From: an uncultured virus (IMG/VR IMGVR_UViG_3300009161_000002)
Lineage: Duplodnaviria > Heunggongvirae > Uroviricota > Caudoviricetes
Direction: 5' to 3' (one strand)
Virus record (IMG/VR): IMGVR_UViG_3300009161_000002
DNA length: 62,355 nt
Position numbers and translations under genes: made by a program. The notes below the pieces were generated by a model. The model was not told the DNA's origin. It ran no database searches and saw only the letters and a program-made list of their open reading frames with translations. Shown here piece by piece: positions 19,727 through 46,297 of the stretch. Position 1 is the first letter of the stretch, and every line of letters begins with the position of its first letter.

Positions 19727-22700
19727 CTATATTTTTTCAAACGTATAACCTAATTTTTCTAACTTCTTCATAGTAGCTTCATCTATCTCATCTCCAAGTG
19801 TATAATCAATAGAACCTCCGTCTTCCCATTGTTTAACTGTTTTAAAAGTTTTAGGATCAACTAAAAAATTATTTTCAATATTAAATGGTTTACCACCTAC
19901 TAAACTTAATGCTTCTACATTTTGTAATGGTTTAAAATAAGTAGAACTTAAATATTTTTTTGCAAGTGAACTAGGTTTTATAAATGCAGAACCTCTTTTT
20001 TCAAAAGGATTTAAATCCCATTTATCATAAGCTTTCCATTGCATACCTTCTGGAGTATCACGGACATCCCATCTATAACCACCTCTTACACCATATGAAT
20101 CATTATCATATATAGCATCTGTAAATTCTGGATCAGGACTTTTTGCAACTTTATATGTTTGAATCCATGGATGATGATAAACAGGTTGACCCAAGAATTC
20201 ATCAATCTGACTTCTTCTTAAATCAGCCCAACGATTATCTCCAGAGTTAATTTTTTGCAAAGGGTGTGGATTTAAATCATAAAAGTCTTTTGTTAATCCA
20301 ACTAACATGTCTCTTTTACCATCCCATGCTTGACCTTTAAAACTATTAGCTATTATATCATTTTTTCTCTCAGCAAAAAATTGAGGAGTATGTTGAAGAC
20401 CTAACATCTTGTAAGTGTTATCACCTATTTGTTCAAGAGTATTATATTCTTGTGGTAGCTTTAATCCAACTGCCCATGCATCTAATCTTCTTTTACCTAT
20501 ATCCTCAAGTTGCATCATAATTTCTGGATCATAATCTTTGATAGCCATTATTTTATCAGCTTCAGAAAATTTATCCCACTGTGATTTTGATACATCTAAG
20601 TTATTAAGTAATTTAGATAGATATTCAGGTGCCCCATATTTTAAAGACATACCTGTTCTAAAAGCTCTATTATCATTACTAAAAGTATTCTTATATAACT
20701 CAGACGGCATTCCTGTAAATTTTTCTATTATGCGATAATTAGCAGGATTAACTCCTTTGTATAAAAAAGCTCTTAATGCATTACCAGGAGTTAATTTAGA
20801 AGCAACTTTTGCAATACCACCTAGATTATATTTTCTAGTAAGTTTATAATTTGGTATTCTTATTTCTCCCCAATCTCCTCCAGTAACATTTTCAAAATAT
20901 GCTTTTTCCATTAAACCTCTACCCAGCAAATCTGCATTTATTCTGTCAATCATTTCTGCAGACATCTTTGGATTAAAGACTCTTCCTGTACGAAAACCTG
21001 TTGGCACACCTTCTATACCATCAAATAACTTACTCTTTTCAGATACAAAATTTAAAGGAATATGATTTTCAAAATTCATATCCCAGTCTTTTCTTTTTGC
21101 CATGTTTAACAATAGATTATAAGAATCTAAACTTAAACTATGTGGTTCTAATATAGAAGGAAAAGCTTGAGGAAAAGAATCATTAATTAATTTCATTGCT
21201 CTACCTGCTTCCATAGGATTAGTCATTTTAGTTGCAAAATGAAAAATATTATCTTCTACTTTATTATTAGGATAAACTGAAAAGTAACCACTATCACCAG
21301 CTATTGTCAAAGGAAATTTTAATTGTTTTACATCCAAATCAATTGGTATATTTCTTAAATCTACTACACTATTTTCATTAGGTGGCAGATAAGTAGTAAC
21401 ACCACGCTGAGTAAGCGGTGTTATAAGAGTTCTAGAAGCAGGTCTTCTTGCTGTTTTACCAACAGATATTAAACTTTTTAAAAGAACTGGTAAACCTTCT
21501 CTAGCTTTAGTCAGTTCTGGAACAGATATATCTTCTATAATAAAACCACCTTTAGCATATTCTTGAATTTCTTCTGGTGTAAGATCTGCTTCGATGTAAT
21601 CTCCACCATCTTGTTTTTTAGGAAACATAGATTTACCATCTTTTTCAAATTGTTCTTCACGAACTCTTGCTTCTCCTTCTTCTGTAGTTGGATCTTGATA
21701 CATTAAAGCATTTGCACCTGGAAAACCTTCTGTAAATTCTTGTAATTTATTTCTTGGTATAAATTGTAAATTAGGATTAGCTTTGATCATTGCATCTGTT
21801 TGGGCTTCTAATTCAGTATTTCTTCTGTCATAGTAATTACCTATTGCTTGATCTGATGCTACAGTATTATTAGGTCTTTGACCTAAAAAACCAGCAGTAC
21901 TTGCACCACCTCCTAAGTTTTGCAAATGGTGATACTTTTCATGTTCTGTCCACCAACCATTATTTTCTATTGATCCAGGTCTTGTATCTTGACTTATTTC
22001 ACCTGTTGCTGCATTATATCCTGTATTCTCATCAGTTTCAATTACTTCTGGTTCTTGCCATTCTACACATTGACCATTATAAATAACGTATCCTTCTGGA
22101 CATTCTGATTCTCCACCATCTTGTGCATGTACTAATCCTTGACCACCACATTTATGACATGTAGTAATATCCTTACCACCATCTGCAGCATCCCATTCCC
22201 AACTACACTTTTTACATGTTACTTCTTTAGTAAGTAAAGCACCACCCTCTTCATAGTACTTAGCATTAGGATCATACACTTTATTCTTTCTAGACGTAGG
22301 TTTAGCAAAGAATGAATTTTCAGTAAAGAACTTATTTGTAGCCTCTAAACTTCTAGAGTATCCTCTAGAGTTTTTCTTTCTAGGCATCTTTGGTAAAGAA
22401 CCACCTTTTTTAAAATCATCTGGAGTTTCTAAAGTAGGGTCGTTATCTTCGTAATAGTTACCTGCTATTTCTTCTCCCGGTTGAATGTTCTTAAGAGCTC
22501 TTAAATATCTTTTGTTACCTTGAATTATAGAACCAGCATTGTATGCATCATCAGAATGATTGTAATATTTCCCTATTACAGGAGTCTCTTTACTTTTTAA
22601 ATAAGTCTCACCATCTTTTTGGAAAGATGATTTAATATGTGAAAGACCAATTATCTCACCAGCTCTGATTGGTTCATCAGCAAACAAACCTTTACCTTGT

Positions 22701-22867
22701 ATATTAGATTTTTGTATACTAACTTTTTTGTAAGGTTTCTCATTTAAACCACCTTTACTCATCAAAGGATTTCCACTAGGGTCTACCAACACATCTTGTT
22801 TTTTAGCAGGTGCTTTAGCACTGCCAAGATTTTTGAGTGAATCTATAAGAACTTTTTTATTATACAT
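19727..22867 (-). CDS. Polyvalent cargo protein: SET domain + Zn ribbon + HExxH zincin + further modules (1046 aa)
   Basis: SET motifs SNIQGKGLFA..I..GE.I, YNHS...N, ALKNIQPGEEI..NY; CKKC...CHKC; HEKYH with downstream EGEAR; start overlaps muzzle stop (TAATG). Confidence 0.75.
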   Translation of the reverse strand: MYNKKVLIDSLKNLGSAKAPAKKQDVLVDPSGNPLMSKGGLNEKPYKKVSIQKSNIQGKGLFADEPIRAGEIIGLSHIKSSFQKDGETYLKSKETPVIGKYYNHSDDAYNAGSIIQGNKRYLRALKNIQPGEEIAGNYYEDNDPTLETPDDFKKGGSLPKMPRKKNSRGYSRSLEATNKFFTENSFFAKPTSRKNKVYDPNAKYYEEGGALLTKEVTCKKCSWEWDAADGGKDITTCHKCGGQGLVHAQDGGESECPEGYVIYNGQCVEWQEPEVIETDENTGYNAATGEISQDTRPGSIENNGWWTEHEKYHHLQNLGGGASTAGFLGQRPNNTVASDQAIGNYYDRRNTELEAQTDAMIKANPNLQFIPRNKLQEFTEGFPGANALMYQDPTTEEGEARVREEQFEKDGKSMFPKKQDGGDYIEADLTPEEIQEYAKGGFIIEDISVPELTKAREGLPVLLKSLISVGKTARRPASRTLITPLTQRGVTTYLPPNENSVVDLRNIPIDLDVKQLKFPLTIAGDSGYFSVYPNNKVEDNIFHFATKMTNPMEAGRAMKLINDSFPQAFPSILEPHSLSLDSYNLLLNMAKRKDWDMNFENHIPLNFVSEKSKLFDGIEGVPTGFRTGRVFNPKMSAEMIDRINADLLGRGLMEKAYFENVTGGDWGEIRIPNYKLTRKYNLGGIAKVASKLTPGNALRAFLYKGVNPANYRIIEKFTGMPSELYKNTFSNDNRAFRTGMSLKYGAPEYLSKLLNNLDVSKSQWDKFSEADKIMAIKDYDPEIMMQLEDIGKRRLDAWAVGLKLPQEYNTLEQIGDNTYKMLGLQHTPQFFAERKNDIIANSFKGQAWDGKRDMLVGLTKDFYDLNPHPLQKINSGDNRWADLRRSQIDEFLGQPVYHHPWIQTYKVAKSPDPEFTDAIYDNDSYGVRGGYRWDVRDTPEGMQWKAYDKWDLNPFEKRGSAFIKPSSLAKKYLSSTYFKPLQNVEALSLVGGKPFNIENNFLVDPKTFKTVKQWEDGGSIDYTLGDEIDEATMKKLEKLGYTFEKI

Positions 22868-39896: not shown

Positions 39897-40415
39897 TTAT
39901 TTTAAGAAAAGAAGTTTATACTTAGTTGATGTAATAGACTCTTTAACTAAATCTAAATTATTAACAATCTCAGAGTAAGGCATCATGCCTTGTAGTTTGT
40001 TAATTATGTTATACATATCTCTTAGATATGCAACACCATCTGCTACAGTATCAAGAGTTCTAATAGGCATGTCAGAGTAAGTTAAAATCTTTTCTGTTAC
40101 ACCTTGGTATCCCTCTACTAAAGTATCTGCATGATCATGAAGACCTTGATAAAATGGATTAAGTGCTGTATGTGCTGCAAAGGATCCATCTCCCTTAACT
40201 TTTAAGTGAAGTCTATGAAAACTGATTGCAGCATTCATCATCTCTGTTGCACAAGCTGATGTCATAGTATCTAACGAACTACCACCAACTCCAGTACTTG
40301 GAGTAGGTTGTGGTTTAGCTGGTTCACTCTTAGGTTGTGTTACAGTAACTTCTGGTCTACTAACAGTTTTTGTAGGTTCATTAGTTCTTTTTAACAATCT
40401 AGGTTTTGCCTCCAT
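39897..40415 (-). CDS. Dps/ferritin-like protein
   Basis: HRLHL...SFAAHTALNPFY...HADTLVEGYQG and C-terminal TKYKLLFL; four-helix ferritin-like pattern after a Pro/Thr-rich N-terminus. Confidence 0.8.
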   Translation of the reverse strand: MEAKPRLLKRTNEPTKTVSRPEVTVTQPKSEPAKPQPTPSTGVGGSSLDTMTSACATEMMNAAISFHRLHLKVKGDGSFAAHTALNPFYQGLHDHADTLVEGYQGVTEKILTYSDMPIRTLDTVADGVAYLRDMYNIINKLQGMMPYSEIVNNLDLVKESITSTKYKLLFLK

Positions 40416-40422
40416 TTTTTAT

Positions 40423-41121
40423 TTAGTTATTTCGTTCTGCAGCTTCTTGACTTCTTGAAAATTGATTTCCTGATTCAATGTCTCCAGCCATTATACTTAC
40501 TGCTTCATCTATTATTACTTCTATGATATCATCTTTAAATTCAGATTGTACTTCTACTGTAGAGATAAGTCCGGTGTAGGGATCAGAACAATCTTTAATT
40601 TGAATTTTTCTTGGTTGTCTGTAGTATGTAAGATATGCATCTTCAACATCAAACTCATTGTTAGTGTAAATATTTAGATCATTGTTTATCAATGTAGCAA
40701 ATGTTTCACCCCACTCAAAGTTTGGTTGTTTAGATTTATCTCTTAATAGTTGACTTAAGTTTCCTTCTTCTCCTAAATAAACAGTCATCCTTCTACTATC
40801 ACAACAATCTTTTTTAGCAAAAGCATCTACTCTTTTCCACTGTAAATAGTTATCAGGAAGATCTGCAAAATAATAGTCTGTTTTTTTTGTAGTAACAATA
40901 GGTTCTTTAATCAGAAGTTTTTGTAAATCATCCTTTCTTCTATTGGATTGTTCATCACCTTCCTTAACCACATTAATACCATGAAGCTGTCTTCTTACCC
41001 ATTCTACCTGAGCTTTATTAAAAGACTCAACTACTTGCCAGCAGGTTATGTTGTCATAGTCCTGACTGTCCAGCTTGTTAAGCCTTTGCTTCATCTTTAT
41101 GGTTATCGTACTATTTAACAT
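40423..41121 (-). CDS. Ring / head-tail adaptor protein (crAss gene 74-like)
   Basis: LNKLDSQDY...FNKAQ, R.DDLQKL, LPDNYL, YLTYYRQP, EVIIDEAV. Confidence 0.65.
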   Translation of the reverse strand: MLNSTITIKMKQRLNKLDSQDYDNITCWQVVESFNKAQVEWVRRQLHGINVVKEGDEQSNRRKDDLQKLLIKEPIVTTKKTDYYFADLPDNYLQWKRVDAFAKKDCCDSRRMTVYLGEEGNLSQLLRDKSKQPNFEWGETFATLINNDLNIYTNNEFDVEDAYLTYYRQPRKIQIKDCSDPYTGLISTVEVQSEFKDDIIEVIIDEAVSIMAGDIESGNQFSRSQEAAERNN

Positions 41122-41587: not shown

Positions 41588-41743
41588 TTATTTGTTTTTT
41601 GCCATTGCTTTAAAAGTTCTTGCCAAAGCTTTTCTCTTTGGAGTACATGTAGGTTTTGACATAGGAGTACAATAACCTTTATGTTTAGGGTTGACTGCTT
41701 TTTGAATCCACTTCTTATCAGTTTTTTTCTTTGCAGTAGCCAT
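41588..41743 (-). CDS. Small basic protein (51 aa)
   Basis: Not in track: MATAKKKTDKKWIQKAVNPKHKGYCTPMSKPTCTPKRKALARTFKAMAKNK; fills the gap between neighbours with 1-2 nt spacers. Confidence 0.75.
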   Translation of the reverse strand: MATAKKKTDKKWIQKAVNPKHKGYCTPMSKPTCTPKRKALARTFKAMAKNK

Positions 41744-41745
41744 GA

Positions 41746-41988
41746 TTACTTTTTCTTTGCATTTCTTTTTGCACCAGTAATAATATCTGCTCTTGTAATT
41801 TTATTTTTTGGAGCAGCTAATGCAGCTAACTTAGCACGTTTTGAAACAGTACCACCTTTTTTCATCATTCCATTTTTACCATCTGTTTGACCAGCACCAG
41901 CAGCATAAGGAATACCAGCAGCTATTGAACCACCTTTTGCCATTTTCTTTTTTATAGTGGGTCCACCACAACTCATACAATTACCCAT
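41746..41988 (-). CDS. Small basic protein (80 aa)
   Basis: CMSC, MAKGG and MKKGG motifs, KLAALAAPKNKITRADII. Confidence 0.7.
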   Translation of the reverse strand: MGNCMSCGGPTIKKKMAKGGSIAAGIPYAAGAGQTDGKNGMMKKGGTVSKRAKLAALAAPKNKITRADIITGAKRNAKKK

Positions 41989-42007
41989 GATATTTTATTT
42001 TTAAAAG

Positions 42008-42280
42008 TTAACAATTCCATTTTCTTAAAGCAAGAGTCTTTCTTGTAGGCTCTCCATTTGGTTTTTTTGCAGGACCAGGCATACCAGACATTCTTGCACA
42101 AAAACTTTTTCTTCTCTTTGCTGCTTTGCCATTTGGATCCAACTTAGATGGCTTAGTAGTAACTGCCATCTTAAGTTTAGATCCCGGATTAGCTGCTCTA
42201 TAACTGGCTACTCCCTTTGCATTTAAACCTCCGGTTTTATTTTTACCTTCTTTTCTAGTCCAAGCTGCTGTCTTTGCCAT
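42008..42280 (-). CDS. Small basic protein, DUF6321-like (90 aa)
   Basis: WTRKEGK...GGLNAKG..SY...NPGSKLK...RRKSFCARM...LALRKWNC pattern known from aquatic phages. Confidence 0.7.
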   Translation of the reverse strand: MAKTAAWTRKEGKNKTGGLNAKGVASYRAANPGSKLKMAVTTKPSKLDPNGKAAKRRKSFCARMSGMPGPAKKPNGEPTRKTLALRKWNC

Positions 42281-42291
42281 AACTTTTTATT

Positions 42292-43239
42292 TTATAAACC
42301 AGCTAAAAATGATGTAGTTAAATCTACCCATCCTCCAACACTATTATATTTTTTAAATGATGTAACATCAATATAAGCATTATATCCATCATCTGTATTA
42401 ATAAATGTTCCTGAACAATAAAATACATCTATACCTGCTCCAACATTAGCAGCAATAATTCCTGATGCACCTGTTAAAAAAGTATCTGCAGATAATCTTA
42501 TTTTTTCAGTGGCATAAACCATTTGAGCACCATAAGTTGGTATAGCTGCAAGAGCTGCCTTAAATGGAAACAGTATAGCACATAGTGTATAATTTTGATA
42601 ATCATCTGGAAAGTTTGCTACAACTGGTGCAAGAGCATTTGCTGCAACCCATCCAATTGCTGTAGCAACTGCACCACAAGTATTATCTGTTAAAGATTGA
42701 GCTTGAGTCTTACCTCTTCTCCAAACTCTACCTACATTTCCTACTTGAGAGATTCCGATGTGGGGCATATTAATAAAAAATAAAGCACCATTTGTTGTAT
42801 TTGTAATATGTGATCCCCAAGCTTGAATACCTAATATTCCTGTGTGAGGATATCCAGATAAACCTCCTGACATAAAAGGACCTAAAAAATCATTTTGTGA
42901 TGCCGGAGTTTGACCAATATTTCTTATATCAGAGTAAACAGGACCATCAATATCATCTGAACAAATTGATTCAGATAATACTACATTGTCAGGAGTATAA
43001 CCTTTAGCTTGTATAAAAGCTTTTGCATAGTCTCCAAATCTTTGTGAATTTACACAAGAAGGATATGTTATTTTAACAGTATTATTATATGATACGGGAT
43101 TAACAACATTTCTTTCTATACCTTCAACAACAGGAAACCAATCTCCTGATACAGGTTTAATATTAGAAAGAATTAAAGCACCAGGTACAACAGTATTTGT
43201 TTTTGGATTTTTTAATGCATAAGGTCTTAGAGCAGCCAT
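42292..43239 (-). CDS. LCIB/LCIC-family (theta-class) carbonic anhydrase-like protein
   Basis: GYTPDN...SIC93SD, F.SGGLSGYP.TG..G..A..SH, PH160IGIS..G.VG...R.G, C188GA: full LCIB motif set with Cys/His/Cys Zn ligands. Confidence 0.85.
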   Translation of the reverse strand: MAALRPYALKNPKTNTVVPGALILSNIKPVSGDWFPVVEGIERNVVNPVSYNNTVKITYPSCVNSQRFGDYAKAFIQAKGYTPDNVVLSESICSDDIDGPVYSDIRNIGQTPASQNDFLGPFMSGGLSGYPHTGILGIQAWGSHITNTTNGALFFINMPHIGISQVGNVGRVWRRGKTQAQSLTDNTCGAVATAIGWVAANALAPVVANFPDDYQNYTLCAILFPFKAALAAIPTYGAQMVYATEKIRLSADTFLTGASGIIAANVGAGIDVFYCSGTFINTDDGYNAYIDVTSFKKYNSVGGWVDLTTSFLAGL

Positions 43240-43241
43240 AA

Positions 43242-43382
43242 CTATTTCTTTTTAGTAGAAGCTTTAATCTTCTTCTCTTGTTTTAACATTTCATTAGTAG
43301 GTTTCTTTCCAGAACCTTTAGCAGCACGGATGTTATCCCAGAGACCTCTCTGGGAATAACTACCGTCTTTTCTTTTAAGCAT
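43242..43382 (-). CDS. Small basic protein (46 aa)
   Basis: Not in track: MLKRKDGSYSQRGLWDNIRAAKGSGKKPTNEMLKQEKKIKASTKKK. Confidence 0.75.
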   Translation of the reverse strand: MLKRKDGSYSQRGLWDNIRAAKGSGKKPTNEMLKQEKKIKASTKKK

Positions 43383-43387
43383 TTTTT

Positions 43388-43561
43388 TTAACATGATGAT
43401 GGTTTAGCTTTTTTAGGAGCTTTAGAAATACCACCAACTTTACCTTTAGGAGAAGTTTGTTTCTGTACATTTTTGTTTGTACCTCCAACTTTTCCACCAG
43501 GAGTTTTATCTGCAGACATTAATTTTTTAGATTTAGTCTTAGTAACATTTGCATTTTTCAT
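43388..43561 (-). CDS. Small basic protein (57 aa)
   Basis: Not in track: MKNANVTKTKSKKLMSADKTPGGKVGGTNKNVQKQTSPKGKVGGISKAPKKAKPSSC, with an internal P.GKVGG duplication. Confidence 0.7.
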   Translation of the reverse strand: MKNANVTKTKSKKLMSADKTPGGKVGGTNKNVQKQTSPKGKVGGISKAPKKAKPSSC

Positions 43562-43573
43562 TTTATCTTTGTT

Positions 43574-44590
43574 TTAAGTGTTCCAATATTTTTCACATGA
43601 AGCAATCATGTCTTTTAAAATATCCTCATTTAAAGGATTTTTTAAGTGCTCAAGCACATCTGACACGTTTCTTCCAAGTAAACTATTTGTTTTAGCATGA
43701 TAAATATAACCATCAGGCTTACTTATAATATACTTAAAAAATGTGGAATCACGTACAATTGATTTAATTTTTAATGTTTCCATATCTAAATTAACTGCAT
43801 CAATAAATGTTTTTGCAGCTCTTTCCTTGTTAGATTCAGCACCATCACCAGAAATATATCTATCCATATTTTCATAGATAACATCTAATGGTGTTGACTT
43901 TCTATACTGAGAACTATTAGCATCAACTACTTTAGCAATGTAAAATAACTTAGTACTATTTTTGTCAAATAATTTCTGAAGTTCTGACAATGCTTTGTTA
44001 CGCATTTTCTTATATTCAGTTCTTACCATAACAGTTTCTTCTTCCTTATCTAGGTAGAATTTTGGTGGTGTTGGTTTTGATCTTGCATCATCATAACTTT
44101 TTGCAATCATTGCAAACCCTCCAGCTTCAATTGCATGAAGTTTAATTCTATCAAAAGGTTTCAGTGGATCTAAGTATACTGGTTCATTTCCACAAGCCAT
44201 ACTTATTTTATTCCAAAATTCTTTATTATCTGGTTTAAGTAATTTTACTTTATTCCAGAAATCTTTATCCTCAACTTCAAGAATATTAGCAGCAAGTTCT
44301 CTCTCTAATTCAGCAATAGAAAATCTTATCTCTTTTATTCTTGCATCTCTGGCTTCAATAGTAAGTAATTTAATTTCAGGTGCAAATTCATTTAATCCTG
44401 TAATGTATCTAATTACTCCGTTGTTTTCTAAACATGCTAATTGTTCATTATGAGTTACTCCGTCATAAAGACTCATCCCATAATCTTCAAGCCCCATGTT
44501 TCCGGCTTGTTTGTCAAAATAAGGTCTAACTGCAATAGATGTTTTTTTAATACTGCCGACACCTACTTCGACCATTGTGAAATTTTCCAT
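43574..44590 (-). CDS. Conserved protein downstream of MCP (crAss gene 75-like)
   Basis: YITGL...FW...LDP..P.D.I and LGRN......LKNP.N.DIL pattern; immediately follows MCP. Confidence 0.65.
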   Translation of the reverse strand: MENFTMVEVGVGSIKKTSIAVRPYFDKQAGNMGLEDYGMSLYDGVTHNEQLACLENNGVIRYITGLNEFAPEIKLLTIEARDARIKEIRFSIAELERELAANILEVEDKDFWNKVKLLKPDNKEFWNKISMACGNEPVYLDPLKPFDRIKLHAIEAGGFAMIAKSYDDARSKPTPPKFYLDKEEETVMVRTEYKKMRNKALSELQKLFDKNSTKLFYIAKVVDANSSQYRKSTPLDVIYENMDRYISGDGAESNKERAAKTFIDAVNLDMETLKIKSIVRDSTFFKYIISKPDGYIYHAKTNSLLGRNVSDVLEHLKNPLNEDILKDMIASCEKYWNT

Positions 44591-44680: not shown

Positions 44681-46297
44681 TTAGAATGATCCACCAGTGA
44701 TAGGGTTTCTCATAACAATCTTTAAGACTTTAGTTGGATCTTTTACCCAAATAGCCGGCATTGTTTGAGACATCATTACACGGTAACCATTGAATTGACC
44801 AGAAGACTGGAATCCTTGTGTTCTACCCATGTAGTCCATTGTACCATTTTGATACCACCATTTTAATTGATTATCCCAAGACAATTTCAATAAGTAGATA
44901 TTGTCATTAGTATTATCAGTGATATCAAAGATAATGAACGAGTAAGATGATAATGGGAAACCATCAATGATTGGGTTTTCAATATCATTTGTATGTACGT
45001 TGTCAAATGCTGGGTTCAATACAAACTTAACATTTGCCAAGAAAGGAATTACATAAGAAGTGTATGCAAATCCAAAGTTCAAGTCCATACCTTTACCAGT
45101 GATTGCACCAATATCAGCAGCTTGAATCAATAAACCAGATGCAACAGCTTCTTTTTTAATTGCTTCATTTACCATTCTCATTCCACCCATACCAGTTTGA
45201 ACTACTAGAGATCTTTTTGGATCTGGACCTTGGAACTCAACCTTACCATTGAAGAAGTTGTAGATTTCTCCACGGAACAAATCAAGAGTAAAGTTATTTT
45301 TGTTGTAGATTCTTTTGAAAGAGTTATCCAACTGTCTCCAAAGACCGACAGATAATCTGATATCATCTGGACCATCTTGACGAACTCTACCACCTTGTCC
45401 CCACATTAAGTAAGTTTCAATGTCAGTAGCTACTTTTGTCAAGTGAGCAGATTCCATTTGTGTTAAGAATGTTCTAGATAAGTCACCGTTGTCAAATGCA
45501 CGTTTAACTTTGTCTTTACCCATTACTTTAACCATATCATCTAAAGATGAAATTGATGGATCAATTGATTTGTCAAATGTTCTCCAGATTTCAGTTACAG
45601 GAACTGTACCATCTGCATTCATTCCACCTTTGATCATCAAGTCTGCACGAGAAGAGATAGAGTAGTGAACGTGAGCTTCAGCACCACCAACAAAGTTATA
45701 GAATTCACGGAATCCAGTTCTTGTTGTGATGTCAGAAAATCTTTCACCATACTCTCCACGAGCAGAACCTTTACGGAATACTTTAGTACCGTTAGCTAAG
45801 TACTTGTTGTCAATGTATTTGTAGTTGTCATTGTTTACCAACTGTACAGTATAGATATATCCATCACCTAAAGGTAAGATATCTTCGTCTGTAATGTACA
45901 TCTCAACACCGTTGTATTTGTCATATGTGATGATATCACCATGTCCAAACTCACGTCTGTTTAACTTGATACGGAATGTTGTACCATCTACACCTTTGAA
46001 ATCATTGTTTGGTTCAATGTCTTCAATGATATAAGGAAGATCCACAGATACTGGGGTCTGCCATCTATACTCTCCACGAGCATTATCTACCATGATTACA
46101 TTTTTACCACCAAATGAGGACATTTGATAAAGTGGCATTTCAACTTTTTGAGCCATAGCCCATAGATCCACAGGACCTAAGTCCATTGGTTCTGCATCTT
46201 TTAGCATGTTCACCAGGTGGTAAGAATCCACATGGGAACTTGCATTGTAAGCGGTATCCCGGAGGAAAATACCATTATTCATTACTGGAGTTGCCAT
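44681..46297 (-). CDS. Major capsid protein (538 aa)
   Basis: Terminase-portal-scaffold-MCP order; EYRW, E..LMWG, GLWRQL, TGMGGM, WVKDPTK motifs of crAss-like HK97-fold MCPs; strong downstream terminator. Confidence 0.85.
   Translation of the reverse strand: MATPVMNNGIFLRDTAYNASSHVDSYHLVNMLKDAEPMDLGPVDLWAMAQKVEMPLYQMSSFGGKNVIMVDNARGEYRWQTPVSVDLPYIIEDIEPNNDFKGVDGTTFRIKLNRREFGHGDIITYDKYNGVEMYITDEDILPLGDGYIYTVQLVNNDNYKYIDNKYLANGTKVFRKGSARGEYGERFSDITTRTGFREFYNFVGGAEAHVHYSISSRADLMIKGGMNADGTVPVTEIWRTFDKSIDPSISSLDDMVKVMGKDKVKRAFDNGDLSRTFLTQMESAHLTKVATDIETYLMWGQGGRVRQDGPDDIRLSVGLWRQLDNSFKRIYNKNNFTLDLFRGEIYNFFNGKVEFQGPDPKRSLVVQTGMGGMRMVNEAIKKEAVASGLLIQAADIGAITGKGMDLNFGFAYTSYVIPFLANVKFVLNPAFDNVHTNDIENPIIDGFPLSSYSFIIFDITDNTNDNIYLLKLSWDNQLKWWYQNGTMDYMGRTQGFQSSGQFNGYRVMMSQTMPAIWVKDPTKVLKIVMRNPITGGSF

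What the first reader, a model, noticed from the sequence alone, without database searches (positions are those of the whole stretch)
42292..43239. Phage-encoded LCIB/theta-class carbonic anhydrase in the capsid gene cluster
Seen: C93-x-D95, GGLSGYP.TG..G..A..SH144, PH160IGIS..G.VG...R175-G and C188GA. Known: this is the LCIB/LCIC (theta-CA) signature of algal CO2-concentrating mechanisms, also found in some bacteria, with Zn bound by Cys/His/Cys; some members lack measurable activity. I know of no description in a crAss-like phage, though that needs a search. The first ~40 aa (VVPGALILSNIKPVSGDWFPV) lie outside the domain and may be a virion-attachment peptide. Inference: either a late auxiliary metabolic enzyme (bicarbonate or pH supply) or a capsid-displayed exapted domain.
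Basis: partly seen in the sequence, partly recalled or inferred. Interest (0 to 1): 0.85.

Follow-up and report, generated by a model that had tools for sequence, protein, structure and literature searches.

The report
Phage carbonic-anhydrase-like protein with portable N-terminal module
A freshwater crAss-like phage encodes, among its head genes, a well-conserved relative of the algal/bacterial LCIB (theta) carbonic anhydrases joined to a short N-terminal module that related phages attach to adhesin-like domains, which suggests the enzyme may ride on the virus particle.

Summary
ORF 42292-43239 (minus strand, 315 aa) matches Pfam LCIB_C_CA at 91.6 bits (cut-off 25). Its model matches solved LCIB structures (Foldseek E 1e-16). 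It keeps every residue invariant across 60 viral and cellular family members: C93, D95, H144, H160, R174, C188.

The window is a crAss-like structural module. The gene belongs to a distinct viral clan with 45 IMG/VR loci. It has no match in 50,697 GenBank phage records, PHROGs or BFVD. The enzyme domain is under purifying selection (omega 0.16-0.34).

New here: residues ~1-45 are a diverged copy of a portable ~44-aa module. That module is in no family library tried, and at least 711 proteins match it. Environmental crAss-like phages fuse it to Fib_succ_major, LRR, Laminin_G_3 and Lcl_C domains, often in tandem gene arrays after tail-fibre and lysis genes. In an unrelated myovirus-like lineage, LCIB carries a different leader shared with tail-fibre/spike-like proteins.

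Best reading (about 0.4): a Zn-dependent dimeric CA tethered to the virion. Main rival (about 0.3): a soluble late enzyme, with the module acting as a dimer clamp. Neither activity nor virion location has been shown.

The parts
42292..43239 (-). Complete gene, 315 aa plus stop: N-terminal portable module followed by an LCIB/theta-CA domain
   Evidence: ORF list and translation. Two bases separate it from the upstream ORF's stop and 11 bases from the downstream ORF's start.
43105..43239 (-). N-terminal module, about residues 1-45; the core recognised by a profile built without LCIB proteins is residues 13-38 (43126-43203)
   Evidence: A profile from 197 module instances in 117 non-LCIB proteins scores 17.3 bits, E 1.7e-7 (single comparison); the best of 200 shuffled controls scores 3.1 bits. 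Strands at 5-11, 23-25 and 33-36, pLDDT 72-89. omega 0.31-0.91.
42352..43029 (-). LCIB_C_CA domain (residues 71-296)
   Evidence: Pfam 91.6 bits. Foldseek: 6kfs E 1.5e-16 with target TM 0.80, PtLCIB4 E 6.5e-16. omega 0.16-0.34 for residues 53-315.
42676..42963 (-). Span holding the predicted Zn-ligand and catalytic codons: C93 (42961-42963), D95 (42955-42957), H144 (42808-42810), H160 (42760-42762), R174 (42718-42720), C188 (42676-42678)
   Evidence: Invariant in 22 of 22 (A1), 60 of 60 (A2) and 19 of 19 (A3) sequences. Mapped onto PtLCIB4 C46/D48/H88/H102/C126 through the alignment and the names of the S47R and H88A mutant entries.
42886..42951 (-). Viral-clan-specific long loop after the Cys-x-Asp motif (residues 97-118, with N107-x-G109-Q110)
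   Evidence: Median 22 residues in 31 viral-type sequences against 13 in 29 other sequences. pLDDT below 50 for 99-109 in the monomer model. Residues 99-109 lie in the modelled dimer interface.
44681..46297 (-). Major capsid protein (context)
   Evidence: Pfam Crass_capsid 1.6e-31; phrog_11589 major head protein. A homologue lies upstream of LCIB in 29 of 45 viral loci.
43574..44590 (-). 338-aa protein directly after the MCP gene (context; no family assigned)
   Evidence: No Pfam or PHROG match. A homologue lies upstream of LCIB in 29 of 45 loci. Only insignificant similarity to crAss001 gp33 and gp36.
43242..43561 (-). Two small lysine-rich ORFs (50 and 57 aa) directly upstream of LCIB
   Evidence: ORF list; no family.
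42008..42280 (-). DUF6321 protein (90 aa) directly downstream
   Evidence: Pfam DUF6321 1.8e-21; phrog_4689 7.6e-30. One RNA-library contig covers it together with LCIB.
40423..41121 (-). 232-aa virion structural protein (context)
   Evidence: phrog_29507 virion structural protein 4e-12. A homologue lies downstream of LCIB in 22 of 45 loci.

Best explanation
The gene encodes a two-part protein. Residues ~55-315 are a genuine LCIB-family (theta / beta-like) carbonic anhydrase domain. It most likely binds Zn through C93, H160 and C188, uses D95, H144 and R174 for catalysis, and works as a homodimer with the active sites at the subunit interface, interconverting CO2 and bicarbonate. Residues ~1-45 are a diverged copy of a portable ~44-aa beta module that environmental crAss-like phages put in front of adhesin or lectin-type domains. 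I infer that this module tethers its passenger domain to the virus particle. On that view the phage carries a carbonic anhydrase on the virion, made late together with the head proteins, and the enzyme acts outside the cytoplasm, at or near the host surface during adsorption. Shown: homology, fold, residue conservation, purifying selection, a separate viral clan, portability of the module, conserved position in the head module. Inferred: Zn binding, activity, dimer. Speculative: virion attachment and the extracellular site of action.
For: Family and fold. All family-invariant residues kept: 60 of 60 sequences. The residue after the first Cys is Ser, as in PtLCIB4, in 28 of 31 viral-type sequences. 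Purifying selection on the enzyme part: omega 0.16-0.34 in 10 of 10 comparisons. Homodimer model: score 0.92, best of 3 controls 0.00; that mark was reached by 20 of 30 proteins solved as pairs of one chain and 1 of 23 solved as single chains; runs agree in at least 96% of contacts; partner pLDDT at least 94; the interface contains 94-100, 119-127, 132-144, 174-177 and 185-190. Solved LCIB dimers exist, so the pass may reflect likeness, and the counts hold only roughly (own alignment, Zn riding along). Module portability: an HMM of LCIB N-termini hits non-LCIB ORFs at 4e-21 to 2e-11. 711 proteins match at E<=0.01 among 8000 scored. Of the 120 listed, 27 carry Fib_succ_major, 4 Laminin_G_3 (one of them together with Fib_succ_major), 2 LRR_5, 1 other LRR, 1 PF07603, 3 LCIB and 83 no Pfam. 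These partners were confirmed on loci. In cells, Fib_succ_major/DUF1566 are surface-exposed, lectin-like ligand-binding domains that usually follow a lipoprotein signal (PMC5758913, passages). The phage versions have the module in its place. Module genes form tandem arrays after tail-fibre/spike and lysis genes. In L219 the array reads module-LRR_5, module-627 aa, module-LCIB. 4 of 4 records at least 96% complete that carry such arrays encode a Crass_capsid MCP. In 5 of 5 relatives of this phage the module occurs once, on LCIB. The window copy is recognised by a profile built without any LCIB protein. Independent second lineage: the myovirus-type LCIB shares its first 30-40 residues at 63-90% identity with 24 non-LCIB proteins rich in fibre-like repeats. 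Two of the seven tested match tail spike, tail fiber or virion-protein PHROGs, and the same leader sits on genes adjacent to LCIB. Position in the head module is conserved in 29 of 45 loci. No promoter or terminator excess around the gene.
Against: No proteomic, structural or biochemical datum places the protein in a virion or shows activity. The module shows no similarity to the known crAss001 head-fibre anchors gp29 and gp21 (hhalign probabilities 0.4% and 1.1%). In the dimer model, module residues 6-10, 16-24, 28 and 35-42 lie in the subunit interface, so the module may be a dimer clamp rather than a free anchor. Some viral-type LCIBs have no N-terminal extension (P0129, P0130, P0142). In a 203-kb phage a tandem LCIB pair sits among dCMP deaminase and RNA ligase genes, and in the myovirus-type loci the gene neighbours PhoH. 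These contexts fit a soluble enzyme. Chlamydomonas LCIB and LCIC keep the same residues yet lacked activity in vitro (review PMC5876011, passages), so residue conservation does not prove catalysis. The two-module model is only moderately confident (pLDDT 64.8). No physiological reason for an extracellular CA on a phage is established.
Confidence: 0.4

Rival explanations
1. A soluble, intracellular, late-expressed auxiliary enzyme. The dimeric CA speeds bicarbonate/CO2 supply or buffers pH in the infected cell, for example for carboxylation steps of nucleotide and lipid synthesis. The N-terminal module is a clamp that stabilises the dimer or a general oligomerisation element. The gene sits behind the MCP gene only because that is a strongly transcribed insertion site.
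For: Module residues lie in the modelled dimer interface. Viral-type LCIBs exist without any extension. LCIB lies next to PhoH in L033-L036 and among nucleotide-metabolism genes in L038/L039. Viral CAs of alpha, beta and gamma classes have been proposed as auxiliary genes (bioRxiv 10.64898/2026.01.21.700432, passages). There is strong purifying selection on the enzyme domain.
Against: It does not explain why the same module precedes lectin-like, LRR and Lcl_C domains that act outside cells. It does not explain why a second phage lineage gives LCIB a leader shared with fibre/spike-like proteins. It does not explain why LCIB is one cassette in an array with adhesin-like genes in L219.
Confidence: 0.3
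2. A virion-displayed but catalytically silent LCIB fold, exapted as a binding or structural domain in the same slot that lectin-like domains occupy in related phages.
For: The domain shares the module with binding domains rather than enzymes. LCIB and LCIC of Chlamydomonas keep the active-site residues but were inactive in vitro (PMC5876011). The viral clan has its own long loop and second-shell changes beside the site: H132 for F, W141 for F, S143 for H, N157 for Y, T187 for C.
Against: All catalytic and metal-binding positions are invariant across a clan that has diverged to 37-44% identity. That would be unexpected if only the fold mattered, although part of it could be structural Zn.
Confidence: 0.15
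3. An internal or ejected cargo protein. The module targets passengers into the capsid or tail, and the CA is delivered into the host at infection, as crAss001 delivers cargo proteins.
For: crAss001 stores about 5.5 MDa of cargo proteins in capsid and tail (PMC10172136, passages). The gene is flanked by small lysine-rich ORFs that could be DNA-associated internal proteins.
Against: Lectin-like, LRR and Fib_succ_major passengers make little sense inside a cell. No similarity to known cargo proteins was found. The conserved Cys-Cys at the end of the consensus module fits an extracellular setting better.
Confidence: 0.08

Closest known systems
LCIB-family (theta / LCIB-type beta) carbonic anhydrases with solved structures: PtLCIB4 (5b5y), 6kfs, 9vzj, CrLCIB (5k5w), LCIC (5b5x)
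   Same: Pfam LCIB_C_CA. Same fold (target TM 0.69-0.84, Foldseek E 1e-16 to 6e-07). Same Cys/His/Cys, Asp, His and Arg positions. A modelled dimer with the sites at the interface.
   Different: Only 14-23% identity in the structural alignments. A loop after Cys-x-Asp that is about 9 residues longer. An extra N-terminal module. Encoded by a phage, with no CO2-concentrating-mechanism partners nearby. The 'VxRP' arginine of the algal proteins is absent, but it is also absent in the closest cellular relatives.
Bacterial LCIB_C_CA proteins, mainly of Bacteroidota (Prolixibacteraceae, Balneolaceae, Chitinophagaceae, Bacteroidaceae) and Planctomycetota
   Same: Same domain and same invariant residues. 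These are the nearest neighbours of the viral clan in the tree.
   Different: At most 33% identity in 79 of 80 cellular loci. The single 71% hit is a 1.6-kb MAG contig and is probably phage. The viral clan is separated with 100% local support, but its sister group is poorly supported (15-78%). None of these carries the N-module.
crAss001 head-fibre proteins gp21 and gp29 (PMC10172136)
   Same: Small proteins of a crassvirus that dock through their first 38 or 58 residues and expose the rest. gp29 is a dimer and its gene lies among lysis genes. The architecture proposed here is analogous.
   Different: No sequence or profile similarity. The docking site of the present module is unknown.
Viral carbonic anhydrases reported as auxiliary genes (alpha, beta, gamma classes) and giant-virus beta-CAs
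   Same: Virus-encoded CA-fold proteins. BFVD lists Pandoravirus and Harvfovirus CAs as the nearest viral CA folds.
   Different: Other CA classes. The BFVD matches are weak (E 0.03-0.06). None is described with a virion-type leader.
Vaccinia virus D8, an alpha-CA-like virion surface protein (recalled, not checked in any call)
   Same: A precedent for a CA fold on a virus particle.
   Different: Different CA class, an animal virus, and reported as non-catalytic. This is only an analogy.

Membership tests
LCIB / theta-type carbonic anhydrase (Pfam PF18599 LCIB_C_CA) | Profile match above the curated threshold | tested here: met
   91.6 bits against a cut-off of 25, E 5.7e-26, profile positions 10-220 of 223.
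LCIB / theta-type carbonic anhydrase (Pfam PF18599 LCIB_C_CA) | Fold of the solved LCIB structures | tested here: met
   AF2 model with pLDDT 88.7 and pTM 0.82. The top 8 Foldseek PDB hits are all LCIB-family chains, E 1.5e-16 to 6.2e-07, followed by classical beta-CAs at about 1e-3.
LCIB / theta-type carbonic anhydrase (Pfam PF18599 LCIB_C_CA) | Zn ligands Cys-His-Cys | tested here: met
   C93, H160 and C188 align with PtLCIB4 C46, H102 and C126 and are invariant in 60 of 60 sequences. The ligand identities in PtLCIB4 are recalled from Jin et al. 2016, which could not be read.
LCIB / theta-type carbonic anhydrase (Pfam PF18599 LCIB_C_CA) | Catalytic Asp plus the His and Arg reported as important (CrLCIB His162, Arg194) | tested here: met
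   D95, H144 and R174 are invariant in 60 of 60 sequences. H144 corresponds to PtLCIB4 H88 through the H88A entry name. The Arg is assigned by spacing from the His, which is an inference. Their importance is taken from review PMC5876011.
LCIB / theta-type carbonic anhydrase (Pfam PF18599 LCIB_C_CA) | Homo-oligomer with the active site at the subunit interface | tested here: inconclusive
   The model supports a dimer: score 0.92, best control 0.00; 20 of 30 solved pairs and 1 of 23 single chains reach the mark; at least 96% contact agreement; pLDDT at least 94. The pass may come from likeness to solved LCIB dimers.
LCIB / theta-type carbonic anhydrase (Pfam PF18599 LCIB_C_CA) | Zn content and CO2-hydration activity | not testable with these tools
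   Needs recombinant protein. Some family members with intact residues are inactive in vitro.
Portable N-terminal module of environmental crAss-like phages (undescribed; alignments A5-A7) | Significant match to a profile built from non-LCIB members only | tested here: met
   P0001 residues 13-38 score 17.3 bits, E 1.7e-7 (Z=1); the best of 200 shuffled controls scores 3.1 bits. The window copy lacks the terminal Cys-Cys of the consensus.
Crassvirus head-fibre proteins (crAss001 gp21/gp29 type) | Homology of the N-terminal capsid-docking segment | tested here: not met
   BLASTP found nothing; hhalign probabilities were 0.4% and 1.1%. I therefore do not file it as a gp21/gp29 homologue. Only the architecture is alike.
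Crassvirus head-fibre proteins (crAss001 gp21/gp29 type) | Presence on the capsid | not testable with these tools
   Needs virion proteomics or cryo-EM.
Auxiliary metabolic gene of cellular origin | Nested within a cellular clade, showing recent capture from a host | tested here: inconclusive
   The viral clan is one well-supported group (100). Its neighbours include Bacteroidota proteins, but the joining branches have 15-78% support.

The most novel reading that the evidence does not exclude
Freshwater phages of at least two unrelated lineages (crAss-like podoviruses and a myovirus-like group) display an active theta-type carbonic anhydrase on their particles. Each lineage uses its own fibre-type N-terminal anchor. 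The enzyme changes the CO2/bicarbonate/proton balance in the layer around the host cell at adsorption. The ~44-aa crAss-like module would then be a general plug that lets these phages swap surface-displayed passenger domains, whether lectins, LRRs or enzymes.
Probability: 0.25. Interest if true: 0.88.

Novelty: new variant of a known kind. Interest (0 to 1): 0.68.

Why it matters
LCIB-type carbonic anhydrases are known from algal CO2-concentrating mechanisms and from scattered bacteria. Here they form a sizeable, selected, virus-specific clan in lake phages, and catalogued phages and phage family libraries lack it. If the protein is active, phages carry one more class of inorganic-carbon enzyme. 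If it is on the particle, that would be an unusual case of a housekeeping-type metalloenzyme used as a virion accessory.

Independently of the enzyme, the N-terminal module defines a large, unannotated family with at least 711 matching proteins in environmental crAss-like phages. Its tandem arrays of exchangeable passenger domains look like a modular display or host-interaction system. That gives a concrete handle on accessory proteins of uncultured Crassvirales.

Tried and rejected
- **Missing "CSDEVxRP" arginine as an inactivating change:** rejected. The closest cellular relatives also lack it.
- **Homology of the module to crAss001 gp21/gp29, and of the 338-aa neighbour to gp33/gp36:** nothing significant.
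- **Isolated phages with LCIB or with the module:** none in GenBank phages.
- **Family libraries for the module:** Pfam, PHROGs and NCBIfam gave no family.
- **ESM Atlas for a two-module protein:** scores of 0.83 or below, all viral clusters. This is a lead only.
- **Folding a two-module protein:** pLDDT 64.8, too weak for a fold search, so none was run.
- **The search for related loci with P0285:** it returned mostly matches to the C-terminal Fib_succ_major domain, not the module. Scanning those loci added few module genes.
- **Crass_capsid in records of L018-L020, L033 and L038:** no match. Four of these are fragments (11-41% complete); G010 is 100% complete and lacks it.
- **Promoter and terminator scan:** no excess over shuffles, 30 against 32.6 and 4 against 3.2.
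- **RNA libraries:** contigs of 4 metatranscriptome runs lie on the gene and on the MCP gene. The tool warns that DNA can be present in such libraries and that depth cannot rank genes, so I do not count this as proof of expression.
- **Docking of the module on the MCP:** considered and not sent. The pocket known in crAss001 is built by several MCP and auxiliary subunits, which is beyond the size limit.
- **Unavailable resources:** Jin et al. 2016 could not be read. No whole genome is held for the window.
Full report
**The object**

Window 42292-43239 holds a 315-aa ORF on the minus strand with an ATG start. It is packed into a one-directional gene row. Its start lies two bases after the stop of a 50-aa ORF, and its stop lies 11 bases before a DUF6321 gene. 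There is no excess of promoter-like or terminator-like sites over shuffled sequence.

**What kind of genome**

The window is the structural half of a crAss-like phage, all on the minus strand:
- terminase (phrog_6681)
- portal (phrog_6547, 4.7e-100)
- a 418-aa ORF
- the Crass_capsid MCP
- a 338-aa ORF
- small basic ORFs
- the LCIB gene
- DUF6321 and more small ORFs
- a 232-aa virion structural protein
- a Dps-like DUF5856 protein
- several 180-985-aa proteins
- ring proteins 2 and 1
- the crAss muzzle protein
- a run of 1046-1570-aa proteins

No tRNA genes were found. DNA runs holding the gene are labelled freshwater, lake water or simply metagenome. 14 runs hold at least half of the sampled words, and the 20 rows that hold any part come from 17 studies. 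One of them may be the window's own source.

**Family membership**

- Pfam LCIB_C_CA matches at 91.6 bits against a cut-off of 25.
- A sequence search of PDB returns only LCIB-family entries.
- An AlphaFold2 model built on 60 sequences has pLDDT 88.7 and pTM 0.82.
- Its eight best Foldseek matches in PDB are all LCIB-family chains (6kfs, PtLCIB4 and its mutants, LCIC, LCIB), with classical beta-CAs following at E about 1e-3.

I mapped residues through the PtLCIB4 alignment and the names of the mutant entries (S47R, H88A):

| PtLCIB4 | Phage protein |
|---|---|
| C46 | C93 |
| S47 | S94 |
| D48 | D95 |
| H88 | H144 |
| H102 | H160 |
| C126 | C188 |

That the Cys-His-Cys triad binds Zn in PtLCIB4 is my recollection of Jin et al. 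2016, which is not held. A review states that His162 and Arg194 of CrLCIB matter and are disordered in the inactive crystal forms (PMC5876011, passages). By spacing from the His, R174 is the matching Arg.

In an alignment of 31 viral-type and 29 other LCIB-domain proteins, the invariant columns are C93, D95, F122, G126, G129, P131, G134, H144, H160, G162, G170, R174, C188, G189 and N281. The phage protein therefore keeps every universally conserved residue. The algal "VxRP" arginine is missing, but the nearest cellular relatives lack it too, so this is not a defect.

The viral-type proteins differ in two ways: a longer loop after Cys-x-Asp (median 22 against 13 residues, with N-x-G-Q) and several second-shell substitutions.

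**A viral clan**

- An IMG/VR scan found 45 loci at 96-44% identity.
- The 5.8-billion-protein search found 232 relatives, and all 120 listed carry PF18599.
- The exhaustive representative search found 525 proteins at E<=1e-3. About 23 viral-type representatives score at least 137 bits, clearly above the rest.
- The long hits in that rest are tandem LCIB domains, one with a PAP_fibrillin domain, which looks algal.
- In 185,579 species genomes, a biased pattern scan kept 80 loci. One (L129, 71% identity) is a 1.6-kb MAG contig. The others are at most 33% identical and mostly from Bacteroidota, with some Planctomycetota and others.
- In a FastTree of 163 rows, the 23 viral-type rows plus L129 and one fragment form one group with 100% local support. 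Their neighbours include Chitinophagaceae and Bacteroidaceae proteins, but only at 15-78% support. A Bacteroidota origin is therefore plausible, not shown.
- dN/dS against ten relatives is 0.19-0.40 for the whole gene, 0.16-0.34 for residues 53-315 and 0.31-0.91 for residues 1-52.

The clan is absent from 50,697 GenBank phage records, from PHROGs and from BFVD at E<=0.001.

Literature searches gave the following:
- "LCIB" with "phage": 5 papers, 3 listed, none relevant by title or abstract.
- "LCIB_C_CA": 1 paper, on diatoms.
- Carbonic anhydrase with auxiliary metabolic gene and phage: 17 papers. I read passages of one. It reports alpha, beta and gamma classes and has 0 occurrences of "LCIB" or "theta".
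- Carbonic anhydrase with virion, bacteriophage and structural protein: 26 papers. In the one I checked, CA is only a size standard.

**Contexts**

29 of 45 loci have MCP and 338-aa homologues upstream, and 22 have the 232-aa homologue downstream. The remaining loci show four other settings:

| Loci | Setting |
|---|---|
| L033-L036 | Between a different protease/MCP pair plus PhoH and a head-tail adaptor |
| L018-L020, L037 | After an endolysin |
| L038-L039 | In a 203-kb phage, as a tandem pair of 401 and 285 aa among dCMP deaminase, HNH and RNA ligase genes |
| L040-L043 | Next to large proteins, glycosyltransferases and methyltransferases |

The LCIB domain has therefore moved between phage lineages.

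**The N-terminal module**

Residues 1-50 lie outside the family domain but are modelled as three short strands at pLDDT 72-89.

An HMM of the LCIB N-termini hit non-LCIB ORFs next to LCIB in L019 and L020, at 4e-21 to 2e-11. One of these has two tandem copies followed by a Fib_succ_major domain.

A profile search of the large database found 711 proteins at E<=0.01 among the 8000 candidates scored. Among the 120 listed:
- 27 carry Fib_succ_major
- 4 carry Laminin_G_3, one of them together with Fib_succ_major
- 2 carry LRR_5
- 1 carries other LRRs
- 1 carries PF07603
- 3 carry LCIB
- 83 have no Pfam domain

Contigs reach 113-130 kb.

The consensus is about 44 aa, with a KRAFVRY start, an IVPGSLI core, and W-x-E-V followed by L-C-C at the end. 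Some proteins are nothing but two copies. No Pfam, PHROG or NCBIfam model covers it.

A profile built only from 197 instances in 117 non-LCIB proteins recognises the window protein at residues 13-38 (17.3 bits, E 1.7e-7). Shuffled controls reach at most 3.1 bits. The same profile does not hit LCIBs that lack the extension. The window copy is diverged and lacks the Cys-Cys.

**Where module genes sit**

41 further loci show module genes in tandem arrays of two to five. In the five annotated loci the order is tail fibre, tail spike or virion protein; then endolysin, amidase or tail lysozyme; then the array. In L216, L227 and L238 a replication module follows on the other strand. L219 reads module-LRR_5 (400 aa), module-627 aa, module-LCIB.

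Four of four records at least 96% complete that carry such arrays encode a Crass_capsid MCP. A fifth record, 69% complete, showed none. In five relatives of the window phage (three at least 98% complete), the module occurs once, on LCIB.

80 of 117 non-LCIB members have two copies, whereas 10 of 10 LCIB members have one. Since the LCIB part is modelled as a dimer, the dimer would also present two copies. This is an inference.

**A second lineage with the same logic**

The myovirus-type LCIB (L035 = P0390) begins with a leader of the form MANLTLR...DGNFEYF. That leader is shared at 63-90% identity with 24 non-LCIB proteins of 209-623 aa on contigs up to 173 kb. Their remaining sequence is Ser/Thr/Ala-rich repeats.

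Of seven tested, P0420 matches tail spike and virion structural PHROGs (1e-17) and P0413 matches a tail fiber PHROG (6e-07); five have no informative match. The same leader sits on ORFs directly beside LCIB in L033, L034 and L035. Other phage groups give LCIB still other long N-termini, and a few relatives have none.

**Reading**

The partner domains of the module are, in cells, surface-exposed ligand-binding domains that follow a lipoprotein signal (PMC5758913, passages). In the phage proteins the module stands where that signal would be. A phage protein without a signal peptide reaches the outside only on a particle or after lysis.

Several observations point the same way:
- the position of the arrays after tail-fibre and lysis genes
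- the head-module position of the window gene
- the independent fibre-type leader in the myovirus lineage

Together they make me favour a virion-tethered, probably active, dimeric carbonic anhydrase (about 0.4).

crAss001 gives an architectural precedent. Its head fibres gp21 and gp29 dock through their first 38 and 58 residues, and the gp29 gene lies among lysis genes (PMC10172136, passages). No homology to them was found.

**Against this reading**

- The homodimer model passes: score 0.92, best control 0.00; 20 of 30 solved pairs and 1 of 23 single chains reach the mark; at least 96% contact agreement; pLDDT at least 94; the pass may come from memory of solved LCIB dimers. That model places module residues 6-10, 16-24, 28 and 35-42 in the subunit interface, so the module may simply clamp the dimer.
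- Extension-less relatives exist, and some contexts are metabolic.
- Some LCIB proteins with intact residues are inactive.
- Nothing measures location or activity.

A soluble late enzyme (about 0.3), a silent displayed fold (about 0.15) and an ejected cargo protein (about 0.08) therefore remain open.

Contigs of four metatranscriptome libraries lie on the gene. One of 1201 nt covers 42008-43205 with 89 differing letters. DNA carry-over is not excluded.

**Verdict**

As an enzyme, it is a new member of a known family. As an architecture, it is a new variant: a viral clan fused to lineage-specific leaders, one of which is a large, undescribed portable module of environmental crAss-like phages.

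Noticed in passing
window 19727-22867 (-): The 1046-aa protein directly downstream of the muzzle gene carries a SET (lysine methyltransferase-type) domain at residues 58-138 (Pfam 1.9e-06, 28.6 bits against a cut-off of 22.4). It sits in the row of very large proteins where crassviruses encode ejected cargo proteins.
   Followed up: no
window 41588-42280 and 43242-43561 (-): Five small lysine-rich ORFs of 50-90 aa flank the LCIB gene. One is DUF6321, whose PHROG matches lie at the C-terminal ends of much longer profiles (phrog_3477, phrog_727 and others). They could be DNA-associated internal proteins.
   Followed up: no
window 39897-40415 (-); also L249 13872-14276: A Dps/ferritin-like DUF5856 protein (phrog_858 'starvation-inducible transcriptional regulator', 1e-15), with a Pro/Thr-rich N-terminus, is a conserved member of the structural gene row. 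In L249 a homologue directly follows a 1292-aa module-LRR_5 protein.
   Followed up: partly
L038 5602-6807 and 6811-7668 (203-kb phage with terminal repeats, G010): Two adjacent LCIB_C_CA genes of 401 and 285 aa, recalling the LCIB/LCIC pair of Chlamydomonas, lie among dCMP deaminase, HNH endonuclease and RNA ligase genes.
   Followed up: partly
L209-L249, e.g. L227 6940-10687 and L216 5728-11725: Tandem arrays of 2-5 genes each start with the same ~44-aa module and end in different domains. 4 of 4 near-complete genomes that carry them are crAss-like. The module is in none of Pfam, PHROGs or NCBIfam.
   Followed up: yes
L033 6895-10183, L034 652-873, L035 5650-5853; P0412-P0435: A conserved ~30-aa leader (MANLTLR...DGNFEYF) is shared by fibre-like proteins and LCIB in a myovirus-like lineage with 87-173-kb contigs.
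   Followed up: partly
window 44938-44942 (MCP gene): Contigs of all four RNA-library runs carry a G inserted behind 44938 and one base left out at 44942. This compensating pair changes one or two codons of the MCP in related strains.
   Followed up: no
L080 (same 128,825-bp contig as L010): A close relative of the window phage encodes a protein with a Fib_succ_major-type C-terminus within about 10 kb of its LCIB gene. No Pfam match of that kind was seen in the window's own large proteins.
   Followed up: no
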